In this document: one piece after another, positions 12,245 to 13,041 of the stretch
How the letters are laid out: every line of letters starts with the position of its first letter
How positions within the stretch are numbered: the first letter of the stretch is position 1
Sequence record: MN882542
Strand: one strand, 5' to 3'
Origin: Escherichia phage JN01
DNA: 64,000 nt
Notes under the pieces: model-generated
Seen by the model: only the letters and a program-made list of their open reading frames with translations
The model's database searches: none
Told to the model about the DNA's origin: nothing
Program-made: the position numbers and the translations under genes

Positions 12245-12273
12245 TTGACATTGAGATGTGACTACTTTATAGT
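12245..12273 (+). promoter_or_regulatory. strong sigma70-type promoter (TTGACA, 17 nt, TATAGT)
   Basis: Consensus -35 and near-consensus -10 at ideal spacing; downstream 320 nt has no ORF of 60 aa or more. Confidence 0.6.
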
Positions 12274-12588
12274 AACTGAAAATAATTCAGCATATGTATA
12301 ATTCAAACACCAATACATGAGCGTTAGACGTAACACAATGTGGGGAAATTTGTTGTACATATTCTGAATAGTTTTCGTTGCGTAGCGTCTATTTTGCAAA
12401 TTTAAAATAAATGCAAACGACAATGTTTTTCTGGCAGTAGCTTGATAGGCTAAACACCAGTGAGGTCTTCCAATCCCTCATCAAAGAATTTGGCGTACTC
12501 GCCCACGGTATGATTAATAAGGTGGGCAACATTCTAAAGGGTATCCCTTATGGGGCTTGGCTTAAATGCAATGAGTACCCTTTAAAAT

Positions 12589-12670
12589 GTTAATTACGGG
12601 GCGTATCTCAGCGGTCTTCTAAACCGCCGTTAACCGAGTAAGTGGAGTATGCGGGTTCGAGTCCTGCCGC
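12589..12670 (+). tRNA. tRNA-like element, non-canonical fold (possible pseudo-tRNA or tRNA mimic)
   Basis: T-arm GCGGG-TTCGAGT-CCTGC, acceptor CGGGGCG/CGCCTCG and CCA present; internal stem GCGGT-CTTCTAA-ACCGC; no standard D-arm could be placed. Confidence 0.4.
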
Positions 12671-12693
12671 CTCGACCAATTTTGGATGAAATC

Positions 12694-13041
12694 ATGAAAA
12701 CTTGTATTAGGTGCAAACTTAGCAAGGATGAAAGTGATTTCTACATGAAAGATGGTAGGAGAACTCATTCATACTGTAAAAAGTGTGTTAATGAGCAAAC
12801 CATAGAAAGACAAAGAGCACTTAAACTTTCAGCTATTGAGTACAAAGGTGGAGTTTGTCATGATTGTGGTAAAAGGTATCATCCAGCAGTGTATGACTTC
12901 CATCATTTGAATCCTTCAGAGAAAGATTTTAACATTGGTCATAGAAAAAGTCTTAAGTTCTCTCAGGAGCTAAAGGACGAACTTGACAAATGTGTTTTGC
13001 TATGTTCAAATTGCCATAGGGTAAGACATGCAAAGTATTAG
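12694..13041 (+). CDS. HNH homing endonuclease
   Basis: Zinc-finger CxxC pairs and HNH motif (HHLNP...N...CSNCHRVRH); start taken at ATG 12694, directly after the tRNA-like element. Confidence 0.8.
   Translation: MKTCIRCKLSKDESDFYMKDGRRTHSYCKKCVNEQTIERQRALKLSAIEYKGGVCHDCGKRYHPAVYDFHHLNPSEKDFNIGHRKSLKFSQELKDELDKCVLLCSNCHRVRHAKY

What the first reader, a model, noticed from the sequence alone, without database searches (positions are those of the whole stretch)
12245..13041. Strong promoter, 320 nt non-coding leader, non-canonical tRNA-like element and HNH endonuclease as one unit
A near-consensus promoter (TTGACA, 17 nt, TATAGT) is followed by about 320 nt with no ORF but with a hairpin (AAAGGGTA...TACCCTTT). 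Next comes an 82 nt element with a good T-arm, 7 bp acceptor stem and CCA but no standard D-arm (12589-12670). The HNH endonuclease ATG follows 24 nt later. This could be a tRNA damaged by insertion of the endonuclease gene, a tRNA mimic, or a structured leader controlling endonuclease expression.
Basis: seen in the sequence. Interest (0 to 1): 0.6.

Follow-up and report, generated by a model that had tools for sequence, protein, structure and literature searches.

The report
Three independent elements, not one unit
In this Felix O1-like phage, what looked like one promoter, leader, odd tRNA and endonuclease unit is three separate elements: a conserved RNA carrying a ribosome-rescue (tmRNA-type) tag message, a transfer RNA that lacks one of its four arms, and a mobile endonuclease gene; neither RNA matched any paper found in the searchable library.

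Summary
The "one unit" reading fails.

- **HNH gene.** It is a 357-nt insertion (12682-13038). Close relatives lack it but keep the identical upstream sequence.
- **The "leader" (about 12368-12596).** It is a conserved structured RNA driven by its own promoter. It carries a tmRNA-like message: resume codon GCA at 12413, the tag ANDNVFLAVA, and stop codons in a helix-5-like loop, followed by a pseudoknot that covaries. All 121 copies found by pattern keep a 10-codon AN[DE]xx[FY]LAVA frame. Copies occur in Felix O1-like, HK620-like, Klebsiella, Vi1-like and phage-plasmid genomes, and 350 of 5426 complete E. coli genomes match an HK620 copy. No annotation lay under any listed match. No canonical tRNA-like domain accompanies the module, so how the message would be used is unresolved.
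- **The "tRNA-like element" (12597-12678).** It belongs to a family of D-arm-less tRNAs with an invariant UCU anticodon loop. I found 27 variants; 99.4% of pair positions are base-paired and 14 of 20 pairs carry compensatory changes. They sit in tRNA arrays of unrelated phages that lack a canonical tRNA-Arg(UCU). AGA is this phage's commonest Arg codon (43%).

The parts
12245..12273 (+). Sigma-70-type promoter TTGACA-17-TATAGT that drives the RNA module
   Evidence: 11 of 12 matches. It is identical in ECOH1 and similar in Sf16. Comparable promoters read directly from the sequence precede the module in Klebsiella phage YX3973 (TTGACA-17-TAGATT) and, less clearly, in phage-plasmid pSLy3.
12277..12367 (+). 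Lineage-specific 5' segment of about 90 nt, dispensable
   Evidence: Absent from Sf16 and other Ounavirinae, where the promoter abuts the conserved GUUUUCG motif.
12368..12596 (+). Conserved structured RNA with a tmRNA-like message (the 'leader'); the conserved 5' motif GUUUUCG is at 12371-12377
   Evidence: About 93% identical to the Mooglevirus copy, with compensatory changes. nhmmer finds a single copy in the window at 12403-12541, E 1e-34. The predicted fold has z = -2.66 against shuffles.
12413..12448 (+). Resume codon GCA, 10-codon tag ANDNVFLAVA and stops TGA TAG
   Evidence: all 121 copies keep a 10-codon frame AN[DE]xx[FY]LAVA followed by a stop (TAA, TAG or TGA), with synonymous variation at codons 3, 6, 8 and 10. 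No in-frame start codon lies upstream. Rfam tmRNA gives local matches at this site in 4 homologues. ARAGORN reports a resume consensus and this tag in phage Moogle.
12431..12460 (+). Helix-5-like hairpin (CUGG...CCAG outer, UAGC...GCUA inner) with the stop codons in its loop
   Evidence: helices 1-2; one search aligns it to helix 5 of the tmRNA consensus.
12461..12493 (+). H-type pseudoknot: hairpin UGAGG/CCUCA (12461-65 / 12476-80) whose loop CCAA (12470-73) pairs with UUGG (12490-93)
   Evidence: helix 3 has 3 pairs with changes on both sides. Helix 4 pair 74:93 switches AU to GC or CG in 12 sequences, and pair 75:92 switches in 4.
12501..12527 (+). Hairpin GCCCAC/GUGGGC with the conserved loop GGUAUGAUUAAUAAG
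   Evidence: The stem differs completely between lineages while the loop is kept: GCCC/GGGC, GACGGGAG/CUCCCGUC, CCCUGA/UCAGGG (read from the alignments).
12528..12591 (+).
   Evidence: In lambdoid and Klebsiella phages the equivalent helix encloses large variable inserts.
12597..12678 (+). D-arm-less tRNA with anticodon UCU: acceptor 12597-603 / 12668-74, anticodon arm 12611-27, small variable hairpin, T-arm 12651-67, A73, CCA
12682..13038 (+). Inserted free-standing HNH endonuclease gene (CDS 12694-13041; its stop codon reuses the pre-existing TAG)
   Evidence: Searches show the clean presence/absence difference against ECOH1; 85% amino-acid identity to the Sf16 HNH at the same site. Searches give the family matches.

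Best explanation
The region holds three juxtaposed but independent genetic elements inside a phage tRNA array. (1) A strong promoter drives a conserved RNA of about 230 nt, about 320 nt in this lineage. Its core is a tmRNA-type message: an A-rich leader with A at -4, an Ala resume codon GCA with no start codon, a 10-codon tag (ANDNVFLAVA, compare E. coli ANDENYALAA), stop codons in a helix-5-like loop, and then a pseudoknot and two hairpins. I infer that ribosomes decode it as a trans-translation-type template, and that its 3' end is made when RNase P cuts at the tRNA that follows. Which tRNA-like partner, if any, delivers it to the ribosome is not identified. (2) Five nucleotides downstream lies a real but non-canonical tRNA. 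It has no D-arm and a conserved 23-nt variable region, but a standard tRNA-Arg(UCU) anticodon loop. I infer that it is the phage's decoder for AGA, its commonest arginine codon. (3) A mobile HNH endonuclease gene has inserted in the spacer after that tRNA and probably relies on read-through transcription. Shown: the three elements are independent, both RNAs are conserved with covariation, the tag frame is under constraint, and the D-arm-less tRNA replaces canonical tRNA-Arg(UCU) in arrays. Inferred: decoding of the tag, aminoacylation of the tRNA, and RNase P processing.
For: Independence of the elements: ECOH1 lacks the HNH gene but has identical upstream sequence. The two RNA modules spread separately among unrelated phages and are not found together outside Ounavirinae in the loci I fetched.

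Message RNA: tag frames are kept in 121 of 121 copies, with D/E and F/Y substitutions, synonymous third-base changes and all three stop codons in use. The off-frame AUG becomes GUG or CUG in other lineages while the tag frame stays intact. Rfam tmRNA local matches recur in four homologues, with E = 0.0088 in a 394-nt search of YX3973. ARAGORN recognises the resume consensus and the tag. The structure covaries. The module has its own promoter in this window, and promoter-like boxes precede it in other lineages. The element is common and carried no annotation under any listed match; 350 of 5426 E. coli genomes match an HK620 copy. Only 3 of 185,579 species genomes match the pattern, so it is not a bacterial ssrA gene.

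tRNA: 27 variants, 99.4% of pair positions paired, 14 of 20 pairs with compensatory changes, 0 of 500 shuffles as good. It is spaced like a normal tRNA gene within arrays. None of 23 arrays of at least 12 tRNAs that carry it has a canonical Arg(tct) gene. Mooglevirus has a canonical tRNA-Arg(UCU) at the same slot. AGA makes up 43% of Arg codons in this phage.

HNH.
Against: No canonical tmRNA tRNA-like domain is present. There is no G3:U70 acceptor stem formed by flanking strands. ARAGORN and Rfam do not call a tmRNA. The one ARAGORN 'permuted tmRNA' call in Moogle borrows pieces of unrelated tRNAs. A template without a tethered tRNA-like domain has no known way into the ribosome. The synonymous fraction in the tag frame (0.32) is only modestly above that of the third frame (0.25), and part of the tag lies in a helix, so RNA structure also constrains it. 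My pattern fixed codons 1-3 and 7-10, so only the middle of the tag was free to vary in that sample. For the tRNA, no aminoacylation or expression data exist, ArgRS normally uses A20 in the D-loop, and the element's own fold energy is no better than shuffles (z = -0.33).
Confidence: 0.6

Rival explanations
1. One reading: promoter, leader, tRNA-like element and HNH gene form one functional unit. On this view the element is a tRNA damaged by the endonuclease insertion, or a leader that controls endonuclease expression.
For: The parts are adjacent on one strand with no predicted terminator between them. In Roth39 an HNH gene also follows the same kind of tRNA.
Against: HNH-less relatives have an identical leader and tRNA-like element. 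The tRNA family exists in many phages without an adjacent HNH gene. The Roth39 HNH is unrelated. The same HNH sits after a different, canonical tRNA in Sf16.
Confidence: 0.03
2. The message-like RNA is never decoded. It acts as a mimic, decoy or regulatory RNA that resembles the tmRNA message region, for example by binding SmpB, the ribosome or a nuclease, or by regulating late transcripts. The conserved frame would then be a by-product of RNA-level constraints.
For: No tRNA-like domain is tethered in the tmRNA topology. Part of the tag lies in a conserved helix. In HK620 the module lies in the late-operon leader between pR'/qut and tQ.
Against: Tag codons 3-6, which lie upstream of the helix-5 stems, show amino-acid-conservative substitutions (D/E, F/Y) and synonymous changes. 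The stop is always kept but uses three different codons. A at -4 is invariant.
Confidence: 0.22
3. The leader encodes a conventional micro-peptide in the overlapping AUG frame (MQTTMFFWQ).
For: An AUG one base upstream opens a 9-codon frame that stays open in all copies.
Against: There is no Shine-Dalgarno sequence. The peptide's middle residues change non-conservatively, and the synonymous fraction is 0.07 against 0.32 for the tag frame. The AUG becomes GUG in pSLy3 and CUG in Buttiauxella.
Confidence: 0.04
4. The D-arm-less element is not a decoding tRNA. It could be an RNase P/Z processing signal, a decoy for a nuclease that targets tRNA-Arg(UCU), or a decaying pseudogene.
For: ARAGORN rejects it. 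It lacks the D-loop that ArgRS normally reads (established knowledge). The same array holds other degenerate tRNA-like pieces.
Against: The anticodon loop CUUCUAA is invariant, all three stems covary, and the discriminator is usually followed by CCA (18 of 27), across 27 variants. Its distribution is complementary to canonical tRNA-Arg(UCU). AGA usage is high. A pseudogene would not be held this way across unrelated phages.
Confidence: 0.15

Closest known systems
tmRNA (SsrA; Rfam RF00023) and two-piece/permuted tmRNA (RF04321)
   Same: An A-rich leader with A at -4, resume codon GCA, a 10-residue tag AN[DE]xx[FY]LAVA close to the enterobacterial ANDENYALAA, stop codons in the loop of a helix-5-like hairpin, and a pseudoknot downstream.
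   Different: No alanine-type tRNA-like domain is built from the RNA's ends, and there are no PK3/PK4. The module scores 11-25 bits against gathering scores of 47. It is much shorter, and it is carried by phages and phage-plasmids rather than being a bacterial core gene.
Canonical tmRNA genes carried by some phages, as detected by ARAGORN (for example those discussed in PMC9004378 and PMC12656738)
   Same: A phage-borne ribosome-rescue RNA.
   Different: Those are full tmRNAs that standard tools call. This element is missed by ARAGORN and Rfam, and no annotation lay under any listed phage or E. coli match.
D-arm-lacking mitochondrial tRNA-Ser(AGY/AGN), and other natural non-canonical tRNAs (review PMC7609411; allo-tRNAs PMC5389517)
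   Same: A tRNA that keeps its acceptor, anticodon and T arms, lacks a D-arm, and reads AGN codons.
   Different: It is found in bacteriophages of Enterobacterales and other hosts. It has an invariant 7-nt connector (UAUCUCA) and a conserved 23-nt variable region with a 3-bp hairpin. The abstract of PMC11551756 (2024) states that all known bacterial tRNAs have the canonical cloverleaf.
Free-standing homing endonuclease genes in phage tRNA regions (T4 segB; T5 HNH genes). This comparison is from my own knowledge and was not checked here.
   Same: A small HNH gene sits in a tRNA spacer, is present or absent among close relatives, and is flanked by conserved tRNA sequence.
   Different: Its cleavage or homing activity and its target site are untested.
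tRNA-like 3'-end processing signals (MALAT1/mascRNA type). This comparison is from my own knowledge.
   Same: A non-coding RNA is immediately followed by a tRNA or tRNA-like element that could define its 3' end through RNase P.
   Different: This is purely inferred here. The downstream element appears to be a working tRNA in its own right.

Membership tests
tmRNA (RF00023 / RF04321) | A tRNA-like domain: an acceptor stem made from the 5' and 3' ends, with G3:U70, a T-arm and 3' CCA | tested here: not met
   A search for flanking acceptor and T-arm pairs found only ordinary tRNAs. ARAGORN finds no tmRNA at default settings and only spurious calls when relaxed. G3:U70 in the adjacent tRNA is not conserved in its family (7 of 27).
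tmRNA (RF00023 / RF04321) | A message-like region: a resume codon with no start codon, a short tag ending in hydrophobic residues, and a stop | tested here: met
   121 of 121 copies keep the frame; tags are AN[DE]xx[FY]LAVA. Further variants are ANEEVYLAVA and ANEDSYLAVA.
tmRNA (RF00023 / RF04321) | Stop codon in the loop of helix 5, with pseudoknots flanking the message | tested here: inconclusive
   Helix 5 and one downstream pseudoknot are supported. An upstream PK1-like fold can be drawn in non-Felix lineages, but it does not vary, so it could not be tested.
tmRNA (RF00023 / RF04321) | A score above the Rfam gathering threshold | tested here: not met
   11-25 bits against 47.
tRNA (RF00005) | A score above the Rfam gathering threshold | tested here: met
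   31.7 bits against 29.
tRNA (RF00005) | A four-arm cloverleaf with a D-arm | tested here: not met
   Only 7 nt (UAUCUCA) lie between the acceptor and anticodon stems, and they are invariant in 27 variants. ARAGORN makes no call.
tRNA (RF00005) | A 7-bp acceptor stem, an anticodon arm of 5 bp with a 7-nt loop, a T-arm, a discriminator and CCA, all supported by covariation | tested here: met
   99.4% paired and 14 of 20 pairs with changes on both sides. CCA is encoded in 18 of 27 variants.
tRNA (RF00005) | Aminoacylation and decoding | not testable with these tools
   Only indirect evidence: a distribution complementary to tRNA-Arg(tct) and AGA usage.
HNH homing endonuclease | An HNH nuclease domain | tested here: met
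   PHROG 2255 at E 5.8e-40; Pfam HNH is weak at E 0.0085.
HNH homing endonuclease | Presence/absence polymorphism at a conserved site among relatives | tested here: met
   A clean 357-nt insertion relative to ECOH1, and the same site in Sf16.
HNH homing endonuclease | Site-specific cleavage of the empty allele | not testable with these tools
   No assay is available.

The most novel reading that the evidence does not exclude
Enterobacterial phages, prophages and phage-plasmids carry an undescribed class of ribosome-tagging RNA: a tmRNA-type message module with no built-in alanine tRNA-like domain. It would reach ribosomes by a route not yet known, such as a separate tRNA-like piece, a tethered 3' tRNA, or host SmpB/tmRNA factors. 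Alongside it, a naturally D-arm-less tRNA would decode AGA on bacterial ribosomes.
Probability: 0.35. Interest if true: 0.9.

Novelty: new variant of a known kind. Interest (0 to 1): 0.75.

Why it matters
If the message module is decoded, phages as well studied as Felix O1, HK620 and the Vi1-like group would encode their own ribosome-rescue or tagging template. About 6% of complete E. coli genomes match the module. Its architecture breaks the tmRNA rule that message and tRNA-like domain are one nested unit, which would open a testable question about how templates are loaded onto stalled ribosomes. If the D-arm-less tRNA is charged and used, it is a natural counter-example to the statement that all bacterial-system tRNAs are cloverleaves (PMC11551756). 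It would also offer a compact, possibly nuclease-evading or orthogonal, tRNA scaffold. In practical terms, both elements are missed or mis-annotated by current pipelines: ARAGORN does not call either, and small spurious ORFs are annotated over the RNA.

Tried and rejected
- **Alanine identity for the tRNA-like element.** The window copy has G3:U70 and A73, but G3:U70 is present in only 7 of 27 family members, so I rejected this.
- **A tmRNA-style tRNA-like domain made from strands flanking the tag.** None was found in HK620, Klebsiella or Vi1-like copies. ARAGORN at relaxed thresholds gives only spurious tags. Its "permuted tmRNA" call in Moogle stitches together unrelated tRNA pieces, although it did recognise the resume consensus and the tag.
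- **The two RNA modules as an obligate pair.** nhmmer finds no message module near D-arm-less tRNAs of other phage groups in the flanks I fetched.
- **A Ro60/Y-RNA system.** The upstream gene is an "RNA-binding protein", but the Rfam YrlA hit is insignificant and a PDB sequence search found nothing. I did not pursue it.
- **An extra helix in the tRNA.** AUCUC could pair with GAG(U)AU from the variable region and act as a surrogate D-stem. Both strands are invariant, and the helix conflicts with the small variable hairpin, so it is untestable here.
- **A wasted scan.** My first pattern scan used the wrong spacing and found nothing.
- **Bacterial origin.** Only 3 of 185,579 species genomes match the pattern, all Enterobacteriaceae.
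- **Literature.** Six searches found no description of either RNA. The library does not cover most subscription journals.

Full report
**Context.** The window is a Felix O1-like phage (Felixounavirus). The queried stretch 12100-13400 is up to 98.8% identical to Escherichia phage vB_EcoM_D4. The finding lies inside a same-strand tRNA array at 10875-16530, where ARAGORN tRNAs.

**Observation.**
- The promoter TTGACA-17-TATAGT (12245-12273) is the best match in 6.5 kb.
- About 323 nt follow with no credible + strand ORF.
- The hairpin AAAGGGTA/TACCCTTT is at 12536-43 / 12576-83.
- The tRNA-like element is 8 nt further along than stated, at 12597-12678. Rfam's tRNA model scores it 31.7 bits (gathering score 29) by deleting the D-arm and inserting 20 nt in the variable region. 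ARAGORN never calls it.
- The HNH ORF starts at 12694 and is a confident HNH endonuclease (PHROG 2255, E 5.8e-40).

**The HNH gene is a separate, mobile insertion.** Phage ECOH1 has the same promoter, leader and tRNA-like element but no HNH gene. The difference is a clean 357-nt insertion (12682-13038) between CCAATT and TAGTTAGCAG, and the gene reuses the pre-existing TAG as its stop. Records that cover only 71-73% of the query in two pieces, including ECOH1, fit the same absence. Sf16 (Mooglevirus) has an 85%-identical HNH at the same site, but there it follows a different, canonical tRNA-Arg(TCT). The tRNA is not a casualty of the insertion, and the leader does not exist for the endonuclease.

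**The "leader" is a conserved RNA gene with a tmRNA-type message.**
- *Conservation.* Positions 12368-12596 are about 93% identical between Felixounavirus and Mooglevirus, more conserved than the neighbouring tRNA slot, and the hairpins show compensatory changes.
- *Spread.* A sensitive blastn search showed that the core (12404-12528) also occurs, unannotated, in HK620, about 46-kb Klebsiella siphophages, Vi1-like Ackermannviridae, Erwinia and Serratia phages. In HK620 it lies between pR'/qut and the late terminator.
- *The tag.* The core reads AAAUAAAU GCA AAC GAC AAU GUU UUU CUG GCA GUA GCU UGA UAG, which translates to ANDNVFLAVA**. The E. coli tmRNA tag is ANDENYALAA. A pattern scan of IMG/VR plus the fetched loci gave 121 copies. 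Every one has a 10-codon frame and then a stop, with tags ANDEQFLAVA, ANEEMYLAVA, ANDDQFLAVA, ANDNTFLAVA, ANDTQYLAVA and others. Substitutions are conservative (D/E at codon 3, F/Y at codon 6) or synonymous (codons 3, 6, 8 and 10), and all three stop codons are used.
- *No conventional start.* No in-frame start codon lies upstream; the nearest in-frame stop is at 12383. The overlapping AUG frame changes non-conservatively, with a synonymous fraction of 0.07 against 0.32 for the tag frame. Its AUG becomes GUG or CUG in phage-plasmid copies that still keep the tag (ANEEVYLAVA, ANEDSYLAVA). A at -4 is invariant; from my own knowledge, this matches the A86 determinant of resume-codon choice in E. 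coli tmRNA.
- *Match to tmRNA models.* Rfam's tmRNA models align locally to this exact region in four divergent homologues. They cover the leader, the tag and helix 5 with the stop codon in its loop, with E = 0.0088 in a 394-nt search of YX3973, but all scores are far below the gathering threshold. ARAGORN reports a resume consensus and the tag ANDNVFLAVA** in Moogle.
- *Structure.* On 22 diverse copies, a helix-5-like hairpin, a following hairpin and a pseudoknot (loop CCAA with UUGG, which becomes CCAG:CUGG or CCGA:UCGG elsewhere) are 94.7% paired. Six pairs carry changes on both sides, and the structure far exceeds versions with the partners slid by 1-3 columns. A further hairpin keeps its loop (UGAUUAAUAA) while its stem is completely replaced between lineages.
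- *Own promoter.* Promoter-like boxes precede the module in Sf16 and other Ounavirinae, in Klebsiella phage YX3973 and, less clearly, in phage-plasmid pSLy3.
- *Frequency.* 350 of 5426 complete E. coli genomes match an HK620 copy of the module. Of the matching places, 141 are chromosomal and 219 are on plasmids of about 95-115 kb, and no annotation lies under any listed match. Only 3 of 185,579 species reference genomes match the pattern, so it is a phage element and not a bacterial ssrA gene.

**What is missing.** The module has no tmRNA-style tRNA-like domain. No acceptor or T-arm is built from flanking strands, and neither ARAGORN nor Rfam calls a tmRNA.
- Some copies end at a terminator soon after the core, for example L020.
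- Many copies are followed on the same strand by tRNAs or tRNA-like elements. These are tRNA-Arg(TCT), with or without tRNA(CAT), in Mooglevirus and 14 Klebsiella-type contigs, and the D-arm-less tRNA in Felixounavirus.
- Lambdoid, Klebsiella and phage-plasmid copies often carry a tRNA-like domain with an invariant acceptor stem UGUGGUG/CACCACA, a covarying D-arm and T-like hairpin, and a variable insert in place of the anticodon arm.
- In pSLy3 that domain sits about 1 kb away within the tRNA array, so it is not tethered to the module.

I therefore commit to [quoted passage not shown]. I mark decoding and processing as inference.

**The tRNA-like element is a member of a D-arm-less tRNA(UCU) family.**
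- *Spread.* The 82-nt element recurs at 83-90% identity in tRNA arrays of unrelated phages: Asteriusvirus jumbo phages, the 110-kb Klebsiella phage Roth39 (where it is annotated "tRNA-OTHER"), Mydovirus and Justusliebigvirus.
- *Covariation.* A pattern scan gave 27 distinct variants. The acceptor, anticodon and T stems are 99.4% paired, 14 of 20 pairs have changes on both sides, and no shuffle reaches the observed values.
- *Invariant parts.* These are the 7-nt connector UAUCUCA, the anticodon loop CUUCUAA, and nearly all of the 23-nt variable region CGUUAAYYGAGUAANYGGAGUAU, which forms a 3-bp hairpin.
- *Identity signals.* G3:U70, present in the window copy, is not conserved (7 of 27), so an alanine or tmRNA-like identity is rejected.
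- *Role in the arrays.* The gene is spaced like any other tRNA gene. In 23 arrays of at least 12 tRNAs that contain it, none has a canonical tRNA-Arg(tct). Within Ounavirinae the same slot holds either this element or a canonical tRNA-Arg(UCU). AGA is 43% of Arg codons in this phage's long ORFs; from my own knowledge, AGA is rare in E. coli.
- *Reading.* The most economical reading is a working AGA decoder with an unusual body. Charging is untested. The abstract of PMC11551756 states that all known bacterial tRNAs are cloverleaves, and a review of natural non-canonical tRNAs (PMC7609411) does not contain the word "phage".

**Verdict.** The region is a promoter-driven tmRNA-like message RNA, a D-arm-less tRNA(UCU) and a hitch-hiking HNH gene. 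They are three independent elements that are probably co-transcribed. I found no description of either RNA. The main weaknesses are the unidentified ribosome-entry route for the message and the lack of any expression or charging data.

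Noticed in passing
window 13179-13261 (+): A second non-canonical tRNA that ARAGORN misses. It has anticodon CCA (Trp), an apparent 8-bp acceptor stem (GUGGGACG/CGUCCCAU), G73-CCA, a short 4-bp T-stem with a U.U mismatch in the window copy, and an anticodon stem closed by a C.A mismatch. Rfam's best match is tRNA-Sec at 21 bits. Some relatives (L050, L077) have a canonical tRNA-Trp(cca) at the same position, and the window has no other tRNA-Trp.
   Followed up: partly
window 11738-11788 (+), inside the 11539-11995 gap: A degenerate tRNA-like remnant: an anticodon-type arm and the T-arm GAAGGUUCGAUUCCUUC with no acceptor stem (Rfam tRNA 22 bits, below threshold). 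ARAGORN used the homologous piece in Moogle as the '3' tRNA domain' of a spurious permuted tmRNA.
   Followed up: partly
L004 (HK620) 2723-2815; also L011, L012, L014, L018, L032, L038, L155 and others: A third tRNA-like family downstream of the message module in lambdoid, Klebsiella and phage-plasmid genomes. It has an invariant acceptor stem UGUGGUG/CACCACA, a D-arm GCGC-AGGCUGAU-GCGC that covaries, a 30-170-nt variable insert where the anticodon arm should be, a T-like hairpin GCCGG-AGWUCAGCR-CCGGC that covaries, and then N plus CCA only in some copies. L114 has a full cloverleaf tRNA with the same acceptor stem. The layout resembles a tmRNA tRNA-like domain, but there is no G3:U70.
   Followed up: partly
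window 9294-10709 (+): A 471-aa protein immediately upstream of the tRNA array matches DUF2828 + DUF7788 + a weak vWA domain and PHROG 850 'RNA-binding protein' (E 1e-182). It has no relative among solved structures by sequence. It could be a partner for the unusual RNAs next to it.
   Followed up: partly
window 10720-10751 (+): A hairpin with the same 8-nt arms as the leader's closing helix (AAAGGGTA...TACCCTTT). It encloses a TTGACA promoter box at the head of the tRNA array. The shared arm sequence is unexplained.
   Followed up: no
L006 (Kuttervirus PM10) 1296-3392: About 2 kb with no annotated gene lies upstream of the phage's tRNAs. It contains the message module (tag ANDNTFLAVA), several T-arm-like hairpins, a stem GCCGUU/AACGGC followed by U-CCA, and a 19-bp hairpin capped by a T-arm-like loop.
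   Followed up: partly
window 12262-12532 (-): Two minus-strand ORFs of 53 and 47 aa overlap the RNA module; phage D4's record annotates hypothetical proteins over the same stretch (L003 1677-1932). They are probably spurious, because conservation here follows RNA base pairing and the + strand tag frame.
   Followed up: partly
L008 (Roth39) 120-204 and 1508-1589: Roth39 carries two 'tRNA-OTHER' features. The second is the D-arm-less tRNA(UCU), followed 9 nt later by an unrelated HNH gene. The first was not examined.
   Followed up: no
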